From the IMG/VR virus record IMGVR_UViG_3300029957_000005, positions 64,001-128,000 of that record: DNA of 64,000 nt. One strand, written 5' to 3'. The stretch is from a virus. Its lineage: Duplodnaviria > Heunggongvirae > Uroviricota > Caudoviricetes. Both the position numbers and the translations under genes were made by a program. The notes beneath the pieces were generated by a model. The model ran no database searches. It saw only the letters and a program-made list of their open reading frames with translations, and was not told the DNA's origin. Positions within the stretch are counted from its first letter, which is position 1. Every line of letters begins with the position of its first letter. Shown piece by piece: positions 45,962 through 52,566 of the stretch.

Positions 45962-47251
45962 ATGTCAGGCAAGAACGCAAACCGTATCCTTCAGGAAAAC
46001 TTGATCAAGAAGTGGAAGCCAGTTCTTGAGTCTTCGAACGCTCCCAAGTTCAAGAACCGCCAGCGCATGGTCGAAACGGCTATTCTCCTCGAGAATCAGC
46101 TGAAGGCGATCAAGTCCGACAAGGCGATGCTCTCTGAAGCAACTCCTACCAACGTCACCGCCGGCGTTGCAAAGTGGGACCCGGTACTGATCGCAATGGT
46201 TCGCCGTTCCGCTCCGTCCCTGATCCACAACGAGATCCTCGGTGTTCAGCCGATGACTGGACCAACCGGTCTGGCCTTCGCTCTCCGTGCTCGCTACACC
46301 AGCCAGTCTGGTGCTGAAGCTCTCGGACTCTCTGAGCCGAACTCCGCATTCTCCGGAACCGGAACCCAGGCCGTCAACGACATCTTTGCTCAGGCAGGCT
46401 CCCCGCTTGCTGACACCATCGATCGTGGTCAGGGTGTTGTAACTGCAACCGGCGAAGGTGACATCTCTGCAAAGATGGCGTTCACCGTCGACAAGATCTC
46501 GGTTGAAGCGAAGACCCGCTCGCTCATGACCAGCTGGTCCGACGAAACGACTCAGGACATGCAGGCGATCCACTCCATGGATCCTGAGACGATCCTCGCC
46601 GACATCCTGTCAACCGAACTCGTCGCTGAAATGAACCGTGAACTCGTCCGTACCATCTACACGGTCGGCAAGTACGGTGCACAGACCCACACCGCTACCC
46701 CAGGTGTCATCGACATCAACACCGACTCCGACGGCCGTTGGTTCGTCGAGAAGTACAAGGGCTTGATGCTCCACCTGAACTTCGACGCCAACCAGATCTT
46801 CACCGAGACCCGTCGTGGTCGTGGTAACTTCCTGATCGTCTCCCAGGACGTCGCAACCGCACTCGGTGAGTCCGGTAACCTGGACTACGCATCGGCCATC
46901 TCTGATGGAACCGGCGTCCAGAACGACATCGCTAACTCGACCTTCGCAGGTATTCTCAACGGCCAGTTCCGTGTTTATATCGACCCGTACATGGTCGGCC
47001 AGTTCGCGATCATCGGATACAAGGGAGCAACTGAGCTCGACGCAGGTCTGTTCTATTGCCCATACGTTCCGTTCTACGTCCGCAAGACGATCGACGAGAC
47101 GTCCTTCCAGCCGAAGATGATGTTCAAGACCCGCTACGGTGTCGTCGCGAATCCATTCGTCCTGAAGAACGACGGAACCCCAGACGGTGCGACGATGACT
47201 CGCAACCTGAACCCATACTACCGCAAGGTAAAGATCACCAACCTGATCTAA
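45962..47251 (+). CDS. gp23: major capsid protein gp23
   Basis: KKWKPVL, GVQPMTGPTGL.FALR, EMNRELV, DAGLFYCPY, FQPKMMFKTRYG. Confidence 0.97.
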   Translation: MSGKNANRILQENLIKKWKPVLESSNAPKFKNRQRMVETAILLENQLKAIKSDKAMLSEATPTNVTAGVAKWDPVLIAMVRRSAPSLIHNEILGVQPMTGPTGLAFALRARYTSQSGAEALGLSEPNSAFSGTGTQAVNDIFAQAGSPLADTIDRGQGVVTATGEGDISAKMAFTVDKISVEAKTRSLMTSWSDETTQDMQAIHSMDPETILADILSTELVAEMNRELVRTIYTVGKYGAQTHTATPGVIDINTDSDGRWFVEKYKGLMLHLNFDANQIFTETRRGRGNFLIVSQDVATALGESGNLDYASAISDGTGVQNDIANSTFAGILNGQFRVYIDPYMVGQFAIIGYKGATELDAGLFYCPYVPFYVRKTIDETSFQPKMMFKTRYGVVANPFVLKNDGTPDGATMTRNLNPYYRKVKITNLI

Positions 47252-47306: not shown

Positions 47307-47675
47307 TCAATCTGATAGGCTCTCGTAGTCCAGAGGAGTCTTCCAGACGTTCCGTCCGTGATATCTCGAAGCGAGCTGCTTGAGCTTCCTGAGGGACGTC
47401 ATTCGGTTGAAGAGATGAGCAGGGCGCTGGAACTTGACTCGACTGAAGTCAGGCCATCCATCCTTGTCTCGGTGGTAGTAGGTCTTCATCCCGTCCGTGG
47501 ACCATTCAGGCGATCCGACGTAATCCGTGACGTGCTCAAGATCCTTGAGAGGGGTGAGATGAATGTGGAGCCCACAGCAGATCCAGAGGGCCTTGTCGTC
47601 GATGATCCGGACGATGCGACCGTAGAACCGGTACATGTCGACCTTGTTGGTCATCACAATGCTATTTCGCTTCAT
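47307..47675 (-). CDS. hypothetical protein
   Basis: 122 aa, converges on gp23. Confidence 0.55.
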   Translation of the reverse strand: MKRNSIVMTNKVDMYRFYGRIVRIIDDKALWICCGLHIHLTPLKDLEHVTDYVGSPEWSTDGMKTYYHRDKDGWPDFSRVKFQRPAHLFNRMTSLRKLKQLASRYHGRNVWKTPLDYESLSD

Positions 47676-47871
47676 GGACCACCTTGGTTGCAGGATGCAG
47701 GCCTCGAGCGACTTCGTCCATCACTCCGAGGCTCGGGAAAGCAAGCCATATCTCCAGTGCTGTACAACCTATCACCCTGGACGTCAGGATCGCCGCCTGG
47801 ATGTACTCGAGCTGGAAGCCTGAGTCTCTACACACCCTGATGTAAAGCTGCTGAATCTGCTCCTTCGTCAT
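47662..47871 (-). CDS. hypothetical protein
   Basis: 69 aa, ATGA-coupled. Confidence 0.55.
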   Translation of the reverse strand: MTKEQIQQLYIRVCRDSGFQLEYIQAAILTSRVIGCTALEIWLAFPSLGVMDEVARGLHPATKVVHEAK

Positions 47872-48359
47872 GAGTTCATGAAGGCTGTGTGCAGCTCTTC
47901 AGCTTTCTTTTTGACGTCGGTTTCGGTGTAGAGAGGTTCGTAGTTCCTGAACCGAAGGTCCTGTTCGTTCGGAGGAGTGGTGGTCGTGTACCATTCATGC
48001 TTGGCATTGTCTCCGTGACGATGCTCCGGCTTGTACTCCCACCTCCAGGCGAATGGACGCTTGTTCTTTTCTCCGTAGAGATCTCTGGTCACGATCTTGG
48101 CGTGGATGACCTCGGCTCCGGTCCGAATGACCTTCGGAGGTTCTGGATCTACACACCACTTGCCGACCTGATGATCGTACGAGAGATAGATGTCCTCCAC
48201 CTTGGCTTCACGGGCGATCTCCAGCTCGAGGTCCCGACGGAGCACATTGATCGGCTCCCACCACTTGTCTCCGTAGACGTACTTGAGATTGACGTCGGAG
48301 TCGTGGCCGGTGAGGATCCGGAGGGCGTTGGAGGCTCGGGACAGGAGGGACTCGGTCAT
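47868..48359 (-). CDS. hypothetical protein
   Basis: 163 aa, ATGA-coupled. Confidence 0.6.
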   Translation of the reverse strand: MTESLLSRASNALRILTGHDSDVNLKYVYGDKWWEPINVLRRDLELEIAREAKVEDIYLSYDHQVGKWCVDPEPPKVIRTGAEVIHAKIVTRDLYGEKNKRPFAWRWEYKPEHRHGDNAKHEWYTTTTPPNEQDLRFRNYEPLYTETDVKKKAEELHTAFMNS

Positions 48360-48658
48360 TTCGTCAGTTCCTGGGCAACTTTGAGGGCTCTGGAAGCTAG
48401 TTTCCTAGCTCGTCCGAAATTCACATCATCGTGATTCCTGTGCAGGGAGATCTCGTCGAAGTACTGGTCCTCGATCGTCCGGATCCAGGAAGGAACGGCA
48501 TCGACCGTGCAGACGATGATGTCCACGATGGAGCGACAGTCCACATCCGGACCCTTCTCGACCTCGAAAACGATCAGTCGGACTTCGTATCCTTCAGCAA
48601 AGAAGGACTCCCTCTCCATGATCTTCTCGAGCATGATTTCTTTGGTGTAGACGAACAT
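48356..48658 (-). CDS. hypothetical protein
   Basis: 100 aa. Confidence 0.55.
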   Translation of the reverse strand: MFVYTKEIMLEKIMERESFFAEGYEVRLIVFEVEKGPDVDCRSIVDIIVCTVDAVPSWIRTIEDQYFDEISLHRNHDDVNFGRARKLASRALKVAQELTK

Positions 48659-48662
48659 CGGA

Positions 48663-48950
48663 TCACCCTATGAAGATGCAGTTGGAATGGATGGAGACTC
48701 GGATCTTGACACCCTTCTCTTCGAAGATGTCGCCGATCAGCTTGTGAACTGAAGCGACGGCGACATCAATAGAGACGGGAACGTAGGCGGACATGTCCGA
48801 ATATCCACGGAAGGAACCTTCACCGTCCGGGATCACCGTATAGAGATCGGTGGCAAACCGGAGGTAGGACCGACGACCCTTCCGATGCTTCTTGATGCAA
48901 GCGATCGTTTCCTTCTTGGTCAGGTAGAGGGTCTGGATTTCTTCGGACAT
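48663..48950 (-). CDS. hypothetical protein
   Basis: Probable start MSEEIQ after promoter 48976-49004, start approximate. Confidence 0.55.
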   Translation of the reverse strand: MSEEIQTLYLTKKETIACIKKHRKGRRSYLRFATDLYTVIPDGEGSFRGYSDMSAYVPVSIDVAVASVHKLIGDIFEEKGVKIRVSIHSNCIFIG

Positions 48951-48975
48951 CGTCAGTTCCTCAGTTGATAGGAAC

Positions 48976-49004
48976 ACTCTACACTATTCGAAGGCTTTGT
49001 AAAC
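48976..49004 (-). promoter_or_regulatory. early promoter
   Basis: GTTTACA-N16-TAGAGT. Confidence 0.8.
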
Positions 49005-49433
49005 CGGCTTGTACTGGGTTTTCCGCTGGCTCTTCCAATTCTTTTCGTTTCCGCGGTTTTTGGATTCCCAGCGATCGTAGACCGAAGACTCGATCTCCAC
49101 TCCACGGAGGAACTCCTTGTTGATCAGGAGGAACTTGTGGCGAGGAGGACGCTGTCTACGGCCACCACGGCGCCAACGACCGGTGATGTTCGGAACGGGA
49201 CCACAACGGAAGACGTAGTCCTTCTTCTTGCGGAAGCGATAGTGGAGGCGAGAACGGTACTCCTGGAAGGCCTTCTCGACGATCTCGGTCTCGACGCGCT
49301 GGTGGGAGTAGGTGTAGTAGACGCGGAGATTGTGGGCACGACCAGTGATGTAGTGGTAGTGATAGTAGGACGCGACGTCCTCGAGGGACTCGAAGGTCCG
49401 ACGATCTCCGAAGAAAAAGATGGTGTGGTACAT
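48984..49433 (-). CDS. basic hypothetical protein
   Basis: 149 aa, Arg-rich; TAGGAG SD. Confidence 0.6.
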   Translation of the reverse strand: MYHTIFFFGDRRTFESLEDVASYYHYHYITGRAHNLRVYYTYSHQRVETEIVEKAFQEYRSRLHYRFRKKKDYVFRCGPVPNITGRWRRGGRRQRPPRHKFLLINKEFLRGVEIESSVYDRWESKNRGNEKNWKSQRKTQYKPVYKAFE

Positions 49434-49507
49434 TTGGCTCTCCTAGGTTAGTTACCTAAAAGAACTGATCTCCGTCGTACATAGTACTTCATCTCCATTG
49501 CTGGATC

Positions 49508-49537
49508 TATCTACTCTTTCTCGAAGGGTTTGTAAAC
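49508..49537 (-). promoter_or_regulatory. early promoter
   Basis: GTTTACA-N17-TAGATA. Confidence 0.7.
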
Positions 49538-49678
49538 CGGCTTCTCGTTGATTTCTCGGATTTTTTCGAAGAGGGTCTTGATGCCTTCGACCAGGTACTT
49601 CTCGGAGACATCGGTCTCGATAGTCAGGCCTGGACGGAGGAGAGGGCTTCCGACGATGATGCGATAGGTGTTGTTCAT
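49509..49678 (-). CDS. small hypothetical protein (~55 aa)
   Basis: Hand-translated MNNTYRIIVG...KPVYKPFEKE*; coordinates approximate; not in track. Confidence 0.45.
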
Positions 49679-49908
49679 TTGACTTGTCCTTGGAAGTCCT
49701 CGGTGCTCTCACGGTCCCATCCGAAGACCTTGTACTTGAGGTGATTGCCGATGGAGCCAGCAGCTGCACAGTGAGCCTTGTCCACTCCGTAGGTGGTCAC
49801 GTGCTCGATCCCGTCGTCTCCGACCTTGCGAGCATAGATGATCACCTGATCGTAGCCGTAGGTCTTGGCGATGTCCTTGCCGGCTGAGATTGGGATTGGT
49901 TTAGTCAT
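49675..49908 (-). CDS. hypothetical protein
   Basis: Start MTKPIPIS within ORF 49675..49965; YGYDQVII...EHVTTYG motif; start approximate. Confidence 0.55.
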   Translation of the reverse strand: MTKPIPISAGKDIAKTYGYDQVIIYARKVGDDGIEHVTTYGVDKAHCAAAGSIGNHLKYKVFGWDRESTEDFQGQVK

Positions 49909-50123
49909 GCTGCGTCCTTCCATCTTACGAAGTTTCCGTAGAGAGCTGGAAAATTCGGATACCACTGCTCGAGTCTTTGAATGATCTCGGTCTGATAGTT
50001 CCGGAGGTGGTGATGTCCGTGGTCCCGATTGTATCTCAGGAGGGCTCGCCTCTTGATGTATTCTCCAAAGCAGGCCTCTTCGTCGCGTCTGTTGTTCAAT
50101 CGATGTCCTCTCCGAGCTTCCAC
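49905..50123 (-). CDS. hypothetical protein
   Basis: 72 aa; similar in character to the next ORF (YI..(R/K)AL.(R/K)YN...LE..(Y/F)P.FP). Confidence 0.5.
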   Translation of the reverse strand: MEARRGHRLNNRRDEEACFGEYIKRRALLRYNRDHGHHHLRNYQTEIIQRLEQWYPNFPALYGNFVRWKDAA

Positions 50124-50389
50124 CTCAGGAACTTGATGTGAGCATCGGGGAAATCCGGAAACTCGCGTTCGAGACAGGCTGCAGCTTTATGATGGTAGCG
50201 CTCGAAGTATTCCATTCGGCGCTCGAAGTTGTACTTCTCTAGAGCCTTGTGACGAATGTACTCGTTGAAGGCAAGGGACTTCTGGTAATTCTTGATCTCT
50301 TCTTCAGTCACGCTTCGATCTCCTTGTACCGGACTGCTCCGTACATGTCCACTGCGAAGTCGGTCTGAAGATAGGCCCTGGCTCCGCAC
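50096..50389 (-). CDS. hypothetical protein (likely paralog of 49905..50123)
   Basis: EYIRHKALEKYN...LEREFPDFP...FLRWK vs EYIKRRALLRYN...LEQWYPNFP...FVRWK; start probably near 50311. Confidence 0.55.
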   Translation of the reverse strand: MRSQGLSSDRLRSGHVRSSPVQGDRSVTEEEIKNYQKSLAFNEYIRHKALEKYNFERRMEYFERYHHKAAACLEREFPDFPDAHIKFLRWKLGEDID

Positions 50390-50553
50390 TTGAGAGGTGG
50401 ACCATCCATGAACCTTGCGGGCCCGAGGGTCACGACTTCCTGACAGTACCAGATGTCTCCGCCAGGGAATTCGACTCGATACATCGGACGGTTCTTTCCG
50501 TCCTTCCGATTCTTGGCGATGATGTTCTTGTTGACGTTGATTCTGATCGTCAC
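50308..50553 (-). CDS. hypothetical protein
   Basis: IRINVNKNIIAKN...PLKCGARAY. Confidence 0.6.
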   Translation of the reverse strand: MTIRINVNKNIIAKNRKDGKNRPMYRVEFPGGDIWYCQEVVTLGPARFMDGPPLKCGARAYLQTDFAVDMYGAVRYKEIEA

Positions 50554-50723
50554 AGCTTTCGGATCTCCTCGGAGACCACGTCGTCGATCAGGCAGATCGA
50601 TTGATGAAGCGTCTTGCCGACCCAGGTATTTCCATCCATGAGCAGTCGACGAACCACGGACAACGCCCGGTTCTTTTCAAGACGACGATCTAGCTTCTTT
50701 TGTTCTTCTTCGGTCATGAGCGT

Positions 50724-50763: not shown

Positions 50764-50770
50764 ATAAATA
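50764..50770 (+). promoter_or_regulatory. late promoter (head-spike island)
   Basis: ATAAATA, 20 nt before ATG, SD CAGGAG. Confidence 0.7.
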
Positions 50771-50790
50771 TCTCTGATTCAGGAGAAACC

Positions 50791-51075
50791 ATGGACAGAT
50801 TTAAAGCACAAAGAGGAGCCATCGACTCCGTTGCATTCGACGCATTCACTATCACAAGAGTGGACGCAACTCCTCTTGCCCAGCCGACCAGAGCAATCTA
50901 CGTCGGGACCGCAGGAAACCTTTCGGTCAAGATGGTCGGATACGATGGAGATGATCCGTCGGACAATCCGGTAGTTCTGTTCAAGAACCTCCAGGCAGGT
51001 CAGATCCTCCCAATTCGAGCAGCATACGTCATGCTCACCGGAACTACTGCGGACGACCTGGTCGGACTGTTCTAA
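50791..51075 (+). CDS. head-spike base protein (RcGTA Rcc01079-like)
   Basis: AFDAFTIT..D...L.QPTRAIYVGTAGNLSVKM...V.FKNLQAGQILPIRA..V..TGTTADDLVGL; late promoter and CAGGAG SD. Confidence 0.75.
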   Translation: MDRFKAQRGAIDSVAFDAFTITRVDATPLAQPTRAIYVGTAGNLSVKMVGYDGDDPSDNPVVLFKNLQAGQILPIRAAYVMLTGTTADDLVGLF

Positions 51076-51078
51076 ACC

Positions 51079-52194
51079 ATGAACCTGACTCTCGGCCTTT
51101 CGCTCACGTCTTCGACGATCCTTAGGGCCGGGACACCGGATCCTCTCAAGTATTCTCTGGACTTCCAGAATGCGGTCTACAAGGGGGATACACTGACTAA
51201 CATGCTCGGTGAGGCAGGAAACTATGTTGGAGGTCTCTATGAGAGAGAAGACAACGGAAATCTAGTCTCAGTCGCTGCAAATCAGGTTCAGATCACTTCC
51301 AATGGACTTGAGGTCTGGCAGAACAGAACCAACGCTGCATTCCAGTCCAGGGATCTTACCAACGCCACTTGGACGAAGACCGGAGTCACGGTTGCTAGAT
51401 CCACAGGTCGAAATGGTTCCGCGAACCAGGGCTCACGAGTCACAGTGGTCAGCGCCGACGGAACGGCTGAATTGCCAGTCACCACAGAGACCATCAATAA
51501 CTTCATCGGAGCCGTGGACATCAAGAGAGTCTCAGGAACCGGTGGAGCTTCGATGACCGTGGACGGAGGCGCTACCTGGGTCGCCTTGACCGGAGTTTCG
51601 ACCTCATGGCAGAGACTCAGAATTCCGACTCAGAACCTCGCAACGCCGAAGGTCATGTTCAAGTTCGACACAGCCGGCGACGTCTTCGATATGGACTATG
51701 TCACCTGCCAGTCCGGAACAATCCTCGGACCTCGTATTGCGACCACAACGGCCAGAGTCAATTGCCCTCAGAACCGTGCCACCTGCTTGAACAAGCCACC
51801 GCTTCGCGACTTCATCAAGGGTGGAGCCTACACGGCCTTCTGGAAGGGCAAGATGGACGCAAACGGAGGAAGAGGTATCTTCGTCTCCGATGCGAACTTC
51901 AACTGCTCGGTCCAGGCTGATGGATCTATCTCCTGGGGAACTGCATCAAAGCCTGCAGGCACCTTTGCCTTCGGTGTGGATCAGACCGTCTGCATTTCCA
52001 GGGACGCCGCAGGAGTGTCTCGCATCTCTGTGAACGGTGGAGCTATTGCTACCGGGACGGTCGGCTCCCCTGCAGCCCTGACCCACTTTGATATTTCAAC
52101 CAATGGCGCCGGAGCATTCAACATCGCAGGAGTGGTCAGAAAGATCGCTTTCTACACGCCTCTGACCGACTCCCAGATGATGACTCTAGCCTAA
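51079..52194 (+). CDS. head fibre with carbohydrate-binding/LamG-like domains
   Basis: N-term MNLTLGLSL (cf. Rcc01080-type N-terminal peptide); RTNAAFQSRDLTNATW; C-terminal ConA-like beta-sandwich. Confidence 0.6.
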   Translation: MNLTLGLSLTSSTILRAGTPDPLKYSLDFQNAVYKGDTLTNMLGEAGNYVGGLYEREDNGNLVSVAANQVQITSNGLEVWQNRTNAAFQSRDLTNATWTKTGVTVARSTGRNGSANQGSRVTVVSADGTAELPVTTETINNFIGAVDIKRVSGTGGASMTVDGGATWVALTGVSTSWQRLRIPTQNLATPKVMFKFDTAGDVFDMDYVTCQSGTILGPRIATTTARVNCPQNRATCLNKPPLRDFIKGGAYTAFWKGKMDANGGRGIFVSDANFNCSVQADGSISWGTASKPAGTFAFGVDQTVCISRDAAGVSRISVNGGAIATGTVGSPAALTHFDISTNGAGAFNIAGVVRKIAFYTPLTDSQMMTLA

Positions 52195-52566
52195 TCTTTC
52201 GATGTGGACTCGGGCAGTTCCGGACTGAACCATCCCGATCTTCTTCGCAGCACCGTAAGAGAGATCGATGATCCTCCCTCGGACGTGCGGCCCACGATCG
52301 GTGACGACAACAACCACAGACTTTCCATTCGTTGCATTGGTGACACGTAGTTTCGTCCCGAAAGGGTAGGTCCGATGGGCCGCAGTGAGTCCATTCGGAT
52401 TGAACCGACTTCCGGAAGCGGTCTTACGACCTGCAAGTTCGTGCCCATAGTATGAGGCAACTCCAATATTTGATCCAGTGTGATGGATCGGTTTCTTCGC
52501 CTGGGCTTGGTTCACAAGACTCAGCGTAAGTAGGCCTAGGAAGCCTAACACTTTCCTTCTCTGCAC
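52186..52566 (-). CDS. rlpA: RlpA-like lytic transglycosylase (DPBB)
   Basis: GVASYYG..LAGRKTASG.RF....LTAAHRTYPFGT...VTDRGP...RIIDLS; N-terminal signal with RR. Confidence 0.9.
   Translation of the reverse strand: MQRRKVLGFLGLLTLSLVNQAQAKKPIHHTGSNIGVASYYGHELAGRKTASGSRFNPNGLTAAHRTYPFGTKLRVTNATNGKSVVVVVTDRGPHVRGRIIDLSYGAAKKIGMVQSGTARVHIERLG

What the first reader, a model, noticed from the sequence alone, without database searches (positions are those of the whole stretch)
50764..52194. GTA-type head-spike module as a plus-strand late island in a T4-like myophage
Seen: 94-aa ORF with a RAIYVG..G.L...V.F.N..AG.ILP.RA..V..TGTTA.D.VGL pattern followed by a 371-aa ORF starting MNLTLGLSL with sugar-binding-like domains; own late promoter; opposite strand to all neighbours. 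Established: in the Rhodobacter gene transfer agent, Rcc01079 forms the vertex base and Rcc01080 the head fibre that binds capsular polysaccharide. Inference: this phage decorates its capsid vertices with GTA-like spikes for capsule adsorption, implying module exchange between GTAs/siphoviruses and T4-like phages.
Basis: partly seen in the sequence, partly recalled or inferred. Interest (0 to 1): 0.72.

Follow-up and report, generated by a model that had tools for sequence, protein, structure and literature searches.

The report
Capsid-corner spike genes in T4-like phage
An uncultured T4-like phage carries a two-gene cassette for a small "socket" protein and a sugar-binding fibre that plugs into it. 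This is the same kind of capsid-corner spike solved on the Rhodobacter gene transfer agent, so it is a new host platform for a known, widely swapped module and not a new kind of system.

Summary
ORF1 (50791-51075, 94 aa) and ORF2 (51079-52194, 371 aa) form a plus-strand pair among minus-strand genes, behind an ATAAATA late-promoter-like motif.

ORF1 is a clear member of the RcGTA Rcc01079 head-spike-base family:
- NCBIfam NF048002 scores 80 bits against a cut-off of 28.
- The predicted fold matches PDB 6TB9 at TM 0.84/0.94, rmsd 1.2 A.

ORF2 has the features of a fibre:
- It starts with five alternating hydrophobic residues, like the five-point-star anchor of Rcc01080.
- A disordered linker follows, then two lectin/CBM-like beta-sandwiches, one weakly matching the "head spike fiber" domain.

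The anchor recurs in 28 of 44 distinct genes directly after spike-base genes, against 0.8% of background start sites.

The fibre body is 55-63% identical to proteins of podophage-type contigs and Mesorhizobium prophages. It keeps the anchor only where a spike-base gene precedes it.

The phage has one gp23-type capsid gene and no gp24.

The most likely function is a vertex spike on gp23 pentamers for reversible polysaccharide adsorption. Virion location and ligand are untested.

The module is known to be phage-borne and mobile. This scan has noted it on other DNA, including unchecked notes on other T4-like phages.

The parts
50764..50770 (+). ATAAATA late-promoter-like motif, 20 nt upstream of the ORF1 start
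   Evidence: Searches show the motif class is about 4- to 6-fold enriched and co-oriented with late structural genes. GGCATAAATAT is conserved upstream of the base gene in L006, and TATAAATA lies upstream in L144.
50781..50785 (+). Shine-Dalgarno AGGAG, 5 nt before the ORF1 ATG
   Evidence: Read directly from the sequence.
50791..51075 (+). ORF1, 94 aa: head-spike base protein (Rcc01079/GhsA family), a small jelly roll with an N-terminal arm (M-D-x-F ... D12)
   Evidence: NF048002 scores 80.2 bits against a cut-off of 28. PDB 6tb9 gives E 6.9e-6 with the single sequence and 2.8e-15 with a profile. The model has pLDDT 93.9 and matches 6tb9 at TM 0.84/0.94, rmsd 1.2 A.
51079..51108 (+). ORF2 residues 1-10, MNLTLGLSLT: predicted five-point-star anchor (M1, L3, L5, L7, L9)
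   Evidence: The anchor is described in PMC7296036. The strict five-position pattern is met by only 2 of 3162 possible start sites in the whole genome. The four-position version is enriched 28/44 against 131/16754 after spike-base genes.
51109..51138 (+). ORF2 residues 11-20: flexible linker
   Evidence: pLDDT is below 50 for residues 1-17.
51247..51768 (+). ORF2 residues about 57-230: inserted beta-sandwich that includes the 'phage head spike fiber' domain match (residues 81-227)
   Evidence: NF048003 scores 29.6 bits, E 8.9e-7, below the cut-off of 36. Twenty of 34 family members match it, best E 3.6e-23. VIA gives Z 14.2 to a Pa193 tail-fibre chain over residues 57-230.
51769..52194 (+). 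ORF2 residues 231-371 (together with strands at residues 21-55): ConA-like/LamG lectin jelly roll, the probable glycan-binding tip; the end coordinate includes the stop codon
   Evidence: VIA gives Z 16-17 to the arabinan-binding domain of AbnA and to CBM40 modules. AFDB cluster matches are mostly LamG or ConA-like proteins. Distant homologues carry PF13385.
45962..47251 (+). gp23-type major capsid protein, the presumed docking platform (pentamers at the vertices)
   Evidence: PF07068 gives E 4e-116. It is the only Gp23-family gene in the 163 kb genome, so no gp24 paralogue was found.

Best explanation
The two genes encode a capsid-vertex spike. ORF1 is made late in infection and forms pentamers. 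These sit on the five-fold vertices of the gp23-type head, held by their N-terminal arms. This phage has no gp24, so the vertices should be gp23 pentamers. One copy of ORF2 plugs its first ten residues into the five hydrophobic pockets of the pentamer, using five hydrophobic side chains at alternate positions. A flexible linker lets the two-domain lectin-like body swing free. That body binds a host surface polysaccharide and gives the particle a first, reversible hold on the cell before the tail fibres engage. The host is probably Mesorhizobium or a close relative. Shown here: family membership and fold of ORF1; the anchor motif and its statistical link to spike-base genes; the lectin/CBM-type folds of ORF2; the late-type promoter motif; purifying selection. 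Inferred: pentamer formation, docking on gp23, the ligand and the host.
For: ORF1 belongs to the family by three measures: NF048002 at 80.2 bits (cut-off 28), 6TB9 Rcc01079 at E 6.9e-6 / 2.8e-15, and fold TM 0.84/0.94 at rmsd 1.2 A. A second solved relative is the 'Spike Base Protein' of the podophage Carin-1 mature capsid, 8CJZ, so both solved members sit on capsids. Rcc01079 Glu12, which coordinates a cation with the capsid protein, aligns with D12 of ORF1. D2 and F4 of the arm are kept in 49 and 40 of 62 homologues. The ORF2 N-terminus fits the published anchor IALGLGLGL. The same kind of motif opens the downstream gene in phages immuto, RcapNL and P8625 and in 28 of 44 distinct IMG/VR modules, against 0.8% of background starts. 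There is also a natural experiment. The ORF2 body is 63% identical in a P22-like contig, where a spike-base gene precedes it and the anchor is present. It is 55-61% identical in two Mesorhizobium prophages, where the upstream gene is not a spike base and the anchor is absent. In the cultured T4-like Flavobacterium phage immuto, the module directly follows gp23, where T4 has gp24. That genome also has a single Gp23-family gene. Late-promoter-like motifs are conserved upstream of the base gene in three diverged loci. dN/dS is 0.12-0.17. ORF2-family matches occur in 7 of 202 Mesorhizobium species genomes, against 0 of 301 genomes sampled from the order.
Against: There are no virion data: no proteomics and no structure for any T4-like phage with this module. 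The base has only been seen on small HK97-type (RcGTA) and podophage capsids. gp23 carries an extra insertion domain, and nobody has shown the arm can dock on it. ORF2 scores below the curated cut-off of the head-spike-fibre domain model (29.6 against 36). A shared lectin fold does not prove sugar binding. The host assignment rests mainly on who carries related fibre bodies, and the alignment used for that test is itself rich in Mesorhizobium sequences. PHROG 12296 labels the ORF1 family 'tail fiber protein', although that is an annotation and not a measurement.
Confidence: 0.72

Rival explanations
1. The pair is a tail or baseplate accessory fibre, as the PHROG name 'tail fiber protein' suggests, and not a head decoration.
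For: PHROG 12296 matches at E 2.3e-17 and is labelled tail fiber. In the siphophages RcapNL and P8625 the pair lies at the end of the tail-fibre gene block.
Against: Both solved family members are capsid-vertex proteins (6TB9, 8CJZ). The fibre anchor has five alternating hydrophobic positions, which fits a pentamer. Tails and baseplates are three- or six-fold, so the only five-fold sites in a tailed phage are capsid vertices (established knowledge). In immuto and in a Mesorhizobium T7-like prophage, the module or the fibre lies among head genes.
Confidence: 0.07
2. It is a genuine head spike, but its role is not host-capsule adsorption. It might, for example, adhere to environmental or plant-root polymers (a Hoc-like role), stabilise the capsid vertex, or block superinfection.
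For: The ligand is unknown. The folds are generic lectin/CBM types. In RcGTA, loss of the spike lowers transfer only about three-fold (PMC5026251), so the role is accessory.
Against: The only tested members act in adsorption to the host capsule (PMC5026251 and PMC7296036). The fibre body is shared among unrelated phage types linked to one bacterial genus. It also evolves faster than gp23, at 78% against 95% amino-acid identity. Both are the pattern expected of host-recognition cassettes.
Confidence: 0.15
3. The cassette is a recently acquired passenger that is expressed but cannot assemble on a gp23-type capsid.
For: It is an isolated opposite-strand island. Among about 2500 gp23-bearing isolate records, only the immuto phages gave a match.
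Against: The cassette is kept at the same site in diverged relatives with dN/dS 0.12-0.17. It has its own conserved late-type promoter motif. The capsid-binding arm residues are conserved. It recurs independently in another T4-like lineage.
Confidence: 0.05

Closest known systems
RcGTA head spike: base Rcc01079 (GhsA) plus fibre Rcc01080 (GhsB), PDB 6TB9/6TBA/6TSU/6TUI (Westbye 2016; Hynes 2016, PMC5026251; Bardy 2020, PMC7296036)
   Same: The gene order and tight coupling are the same. The base belongs to the same family, with 34% identity and rmsd 1.2 A. The fibre N-terminus has the same alternating hydrophobic anchor. A flexible linker leads to a glycan-binding-type body. The fibre family shares the NF048003 domain.
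   Different: The carrier is a 163 kb lytic-type T4-like myophage with a gp23 capsid and no gp24, not a small HK97-type GTA head. The base has a loop about 9 residues longer (residues about 50-60). The fibre body is a ConA/LamG jelly roll with an inserted sandwich, and ORF2 itself is below the NF048003 cut-off. Expression appears to come from a T4-type late promoter motif rather than from GafA/CtrA control.
Spike base protein of Cobetia marina podophage Carin-1, mature capsid, PDB 8CJZ chain h (d'Acapito 2023, cited in PMC13730344; the paper itself is not held)
   Same: It is a small capsid-borne protein of the same fold, and it shows the family at work on a true phage. Profile E is 1.2e-6 and TM is 0.67/0.72.
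   Different: It is more distant at 21% identity, and it sits on a podovirus capsid. I could not read what, if anything, is plugged into it.
Flavobacterium phage vB_FspM_immuto gp065/gp064 (NC_055915), annotated 'tail fiber protein' and 'hypothetical protein'
   Same: This is a T4-like myophage with a single Gp23-family gene. Its spike base scores 81 bits on NF048002. The next gene starts MYIGLGISL.
   Different: The module directly follows gp23 on the same strand. The fibre is 546 aa and unrelated in its body. The host is a Bacteroidota bacterium. There is no published functional or structural statement that I could find.
T4 Hoc/Soc and gp24 (head decoration and vertex proteins of T4)
   Same: These are accessory proteins on the outside of a gp23-type capsid, and gp24 defines the vertices.
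   Different: There is no sequence or fold relation. Hoc and Soc bind hexamers and interfaces, not the five-fold axis. gp24 is a gp23 paralogue and is absent here.

Membership tests
Spike base protein, RCAP_Rcc01079 family (NCBIfam NF048002, equivalog) | Whole-protein score above the curated cut-off | tested here: met
   80.2 bits against a cut-off of 28, E 1e-22, covering residues 2-93 of 94.
Spike base protein, RCAP_Rcc01079 family | Single small jelly-roll domain of about 85-95 aa that superposes on the solved chain | tested here: met
   The model has pLDDT 93.9. Foldseek to 6tb9 gives E 8.6e-7, TM 0.84/0.94, rmsd 1.2 A over 94 columns.
Spike base protein, RCAP_Rcc01079 family | N-terminal capsid-binding arm with an acidic residue matching Glu12 | tested here: met
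   D12 aligns with E12 of Rcc01079. D2 is kept in 49/62 homologues, F4 in 40/62, and D/E at the aligned column in 31/62. The role of Glu12 is taken from PMC7296036.
Spike base protein, RCAP_Rcc01079 family | Forms a pentamer on the five-fold capsid vertex | not testable with these tools
No virion data exist.
Head spike fibre (Rcc01080/GhsB type) | N-terminal peptide with five hydrophobic residues at alternate positions, encoded directly after the base gene | tested here: met
   M1, L3, L5, L7 and L9 are present. The gene starts 3 nt after the ORF1 stop. Only 2 of 3162 start sites in the genome fit the strict pattern.
Head spike fibre (NCBIfam NF048003, 'phage head spike fiber domain') | Domain score above the curated cut-off | tested here: not met
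   ORF2 scores 29.6 bits against a cut-off of 36, although E is 8.9e-7 over residues 81-227. Twenty of 34 aligned family members match the model, best E 3.6e-23. Homology of this domain is therefore likely, but ORF2 is not a member by the curated rule.
Head spike fibre (Rcc01080/GhsB type) | Binds host capsular polysaccharide | not testable with these tools
   There is only fold-level likeness to CBM40, CBM22, LamG and an arabinan-binding domain.
T4-type late gene | TATAAATA-type late promoter upstream | tested here: inconclusive
   The exact octamer is absent from the window. ATAAATA lies at 50764. The ATANATA class occurs 20 times against 4.9 expected and is co-oriented with structural genes. 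L144 has TATAAATA upstream of its base gene. There are no transcript data.
Phage tail fibre (PHROG 12296 label) | Location on the tail | not testable with these tools
   The label is an annotation. Both solved relatives are capsid proteins.

The most novel reading that the evidence does not exclude
The Rcc01079-type base is a universal 'socket' for HK97-fold capsid pentons, including the much larger gp23-type heads that lack gp24. Any protein that acquires a ten-residue alternating-leucine plug can then be displayed at the vertices. In this phage clade, the socket displays a receptor-binding cassette that also circulates among T7-like and P22-like phages of Mesorhizobium. The head spike would therefore both predict the host of an uncultured T4-like phage and show that head-borne adsorption organelles are exchanged across all three tailed-phage morphotypes.
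Probability: 0.5. Interest if true: 0.6.

Novelty: new member of a known kind. Interest (0 to 1): 0.48.

Why it matters
T4-like heads are among the best-studied capsids, and their known decorations (Hoc, Soc, gp24) do not include vertex fibres. A spike of the RcGTA kind on a gp23 head would mean that adsorption by T4-like phages can start at the head as well as at the tail fibres.

Two practical points follow:
- Database labels of 'tail fiber protein' for this family look misleading.
- A spike-base gene followed by a gene whose product opens with alternating hydrophobic residues is a simple, testable rule for finding head-borne receptor-binding proteins. Sharing of the fibre body can also hint at the host of uncultured phages.

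The finding does not reveal a new mechanism.

Tried and rejected
- **Complex prediction.** I folded 4 copies of the base with ORF2 residues 1-40. The result was no verdict (score 0.15, mark 0.32). A pentamer could not be submitted because the limit is 4 copies. This counts neither for nor against binding.
- **DNA search.** blastn of the locus against isolate phages found no match.
- **ORF2 protein searches.** tblastn against isolate phages found nothing. PDB sequence searches, single and profile, gave nothing relevant beyond a weak tail-fibre gp17 hit at E 0.0076. Pfam and PHROGs gave no family.
- **Scans of genome contigs.** The scan with alignment A1 failed for lack of a usable pattern. Scans with A2 and with ORF2 found no relatives. 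The A2 profile found nothing in 301 genomes sampled from the order, nor did ORF2 in the one Mesorhizobium genome that holds a spike-base homologue.
- **Upstream genes in the Mesorhizobium prophages.** I tested whether the 86-aa and 92-aa genes upstream of the prophage fibres are spike bases. They are not.
- **Loose anchor test.** A loose alternating-hydrophobic test over all start codons of the genome was too permissive (148 of 3162), so I replaced it with a stricter pattern.
- **Literature.** The Carin-1 cryo-EM paper (PMC10134823) is not held. Searches for 8CJZ and for ghsA/ghsB/head spike found no report of such spikes on T4-like phages.

Full report
**What is in the sequence**

ORF1 (50791-51075, 94 aa) and ORF2 (51079-52194, 371 aa) lie on the plus strand with 3 nt between them. 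Every plausible gene from 47307 to 50717 and from 52186 to about 56644 is on the minus strand.

The window belongs to a T4-like myophage. It encodes a gp23-type major capsid protein (45962-47251), portal, prohead protease, scaffold, sheath, large terminase, baseplate wedge and a gp30.3 homologue. The record is a 163,358-bp uncultured virus genome estimated 93% complete. Its capsid protein is only about 50% identical to those of the nearest isolates, Pelagibacter phage HTVC008M and Methylophilales phage Melnitz.

Two related metagenomic contigs, L006 and L007, keep the same plus-strand island at the same place. Against L006, ORF1 and ORF2 are 76-78% identical with dN/dS 0.17 and 0.12, while gp23 is 95% identical. 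Both are therefore real genes under selection that evolve faster than the capsid.

**Promoter**

The exact T4 late consensus TATAAATA is absent from the window. ATAAATA occurs five times against 0.77 expected. The wider class ATANATA occurs 20 times against 4.9 expected. All copies share the orientation of the local genes, and they are concentrated before structural genes.

The copy at 50764-70 lies 20 nt before the ORF1 ATG and is followed by AGGAG. The same GGCATAAATAT context stands before the base gene in L006. A canonical TATAAATA stands before the base gene of a more distant relative, L144. Late expression is thus plausible but not shown.

**ORF1 is a head-spike base**

- It scores 80.2 bits on NCBIfam NF048002, 'spike base protein, RCAP_Rcc01079 family', whose cut-off is 28.
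- It matches the solved RcGTA chain over its full length at E 6.9e-6. A profile of 62 homologues raises this to 2.8e-15.
- The AlphaFold model (pLDDT 93.9) superposes on 6TB9 with TM 0.84/0.94 and rmsd 1.2 A.
- The next best structure, and the only other significant one, is the 'Spike Base Protein' of the mature capsid of podophage Carin-1, 8CJZ.

Both solved members therefore sit on capsids. Bardy et al. (PMC7296036) describe the base as a pentamer on the capsid pentons. It is held by its N-terminal arms and by a cation shared between Glu12 and a capsid aspartate. ORF1 has D12 at the aligned position, and the arm residues D2 and F4 are kept in most homologues.

The family is large, with 936 clusters at E <= 0.001 and at least 522 IMG/VR contigs. 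PHROGs labels it 'tail fiber protein', which the structures contradict.

**ORF2 is a fibre with the plug**

In RcGTA, residues 2-10 of the fibre (IALGLGLGL) form a five-point star. Its alternate (iso)leucines enter hydrophobic pockets of the five base subunits, and the rest of the fibre is flexible. ORF2 begins MNLTLGLSL, with M1, L3, L5, L7 and L9.

The ORF2 model (pLDDT 89.1) is disordered for residues 1-17 and then folds into two beta-sandwiches.

I tested whether the plug is a general feature of the module:
- The gene after the base starts MYIGLGISL in phage immuto, MGLGLGIGLGL in RcapNL and MIGLGLDLSL in P8625.
- Among 44 distinct modules from IMG/VR, 28 have at least four hydrophobic residues alternating with polar ones at the N-terminus. 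Among other start sites in the same loci the count is 131 of 16,754 (odds ratio about 220).
- In the whole genome of this phage, the strict five-position pattern is met by ORF2 and by one unlikely GTG frame out of 3162 possible starts.

**A natural experiment on the plug**

The ORF2 body has close relatives in other phage types.

| Relative | Identity to ORF2 | Context | Upstream gene | N-terminus |
|---|---|---|---|---|
| P0007 | 63% | P22-like contig (P22 portal) | 98 aa, a spike base (50.6 bits on my profile) | MSRLGIGLGI, anchor present |
| P0008 | 61% | T7-like Mesorhizobium prophage, between scaffold and capsid genes | small gene, not a spike base | no plug |
| P0009 | 55% | second Mesorhizobium prophage | small gene, not a spike base | no plug |

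The plug therefore goes with the socket and not with the fibre body. That is what a physical plug-and-socket pairing predicts.

**The fibre body**

Foldseek and VIA matches are almost all carbohydrate-binding modules and lectin jelly rolls. They include the arabinan-binding domain of AbnA and sialic-acid-binding CBM40 (Z 16-17), CBM22, LamG, and C-terminal domains of Klebsiella phage tail spikes.

The aligned ranges suggest two parts. A ConA-like domain is built from residues 21-55 and 231-371. An inserted sandwich spans residues 57-230, which on its own resembles a Pseudomonas phage Pa193 tail-fibre domain. The same two-domain body ends many larger LamG, SGNH-esterase or beta-helix proteins in AlphaFold DB.

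The inserted domain matches NCBIfam NF048003, 'phage head spike fiber domain', at E 8.9e-7. It scores only 29.6 bits against a cut-off of 36. Twenty of 34 aligned relatives match that model, the best at E 3.6e-23. Homology to the GTA fibre domain is likely, but ORF2 is not a member by the curated rule.

**Where would it sit on a T4-like head?**

The genome has a single Gp23-family gene and so no gp24 vertex paralogue. It is established for T4 that gp23 can replace gp24 at the vertices in bypass mutants. Many T4-like phages outside the T-even group also lack gp24 (my own knowledge, not checked here). The five-fold vertices should then be gp23 pentamers, which are the only five-fold sites in the particle.

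The one cultured T4-like phage with the module is Flavobacterium phage immuto. It places the module directly after gp23, where T4 has gp24, and it also has a single Gp23-family gene. Two unchecked first-stage notes of this scan (e1-5375409, e1-5375428) describe similar pairs right after gp23 in other T4-like phages. Docking on gp23 remains an inference.

**Host and exchange**

All named sources of ORF2 relatives are Mesorhizobium. The family profile hits 7 of 202 Mesorhizobium species genomes and none of 301 genomes sampled across the order. The profile is rich in Mesorhizobium sequences, so this test is partly circular.

The body is shared by a myophage, a P22-like contig and a T7-like prophage. 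This shows cassette exchange across morphotypes. It gives no direction, and GTAs have no special role.

Hynes et al. 2016 (PMC5026251) already concluded that rcc01079 and rcc01080 are of phage origin and often exchanged. They noted RcapNL and RcapMu homologues, which PMC8601537 repeats. Isolates with a base gene include sipho-, podo- and myophages.

**Verdict**

This is a well-supported new member of a known module, on an unusual platform. The scan has already described the same module on other DNA, including T7-like and P22-like phages and Rhodobacterales GTA loci. I found no paper reporting it on a T4-like phage. The complex prediction gave no verdict and is not used as evidence.

Noticed in passing
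window 52186-52566 (-): A 126-aa protein has a signal-peptide-like N-terminus and a DPBB_1 / RlpA-like lytic transglycosylase domain (E 1e-25). It converges on ORF2 and overlaps its last 9 nt. It is conserved at the same place in L006, although the gene caller there missed it.
   Followed up: partly
whole genome G000 (window 45962-47251 for gp23): There is only one Gp23-family gene in the 163 kb genome, so no gp24 vertex paralogue. The same holds for the complete genome of Flavobacterium phage immuto.
   Followed up: yes
L005:9741-11134 (Mesorhizobium T7-like prophage); L143:7723-9134: Close relatives of the ORF2 body (55-61% identity) lack the plug. Each follows an unrelated, beta-rich 86- or 92-aa protein with no family match. 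In L005 the pair lies between the scaffold and capsid genes. This could be a second, undescribed type of socket for the same fibre.
   Followed up: partly
L144:4143-8053: The closest base outside the clade (51% identity) also sits in a plus-strand island among minus-strand small genes, behind TATAAATA. It is followed by an 815-aa protein with a GDSL/SGNH esterase domain and a partial plug (MLGLRLGGMGVG). A 393-aa ORF2 relative with no obvious plug comes next, so this may be a three-part spike.
   Followed up: partly
window 50938-50970 (ORF1 residues about 50-60): ORF1 has a loop about 9 residues longer (GYDGDDPSDNP) than Rcc01079 and most family members. A minority of homologues share it. Its position on the pentamer is unknown.
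   Followed up: no
window, 20 sites (e.g. 38515, 41693, 43390, 44516, 45930): ATAGATA/ATAAATA/ATATATA motifs precede sheath, portal, protease, scaffold and gp23 genes. All are co-oriented with those genes, at 20 sites against 4.9 expected. This phage's late promoter seems to be ATANATA and not TATAAATA.
   Followed up: partly
window 50791-52194 against L006:9713-11119: Synonymous divergence of the spike genes (dS 0.9-1.3) is two to three times that of gp23 (0.43) between the same two phages. This could reflect codon constraint on gp23 or a separate history of the cassette.
   Followed up: no
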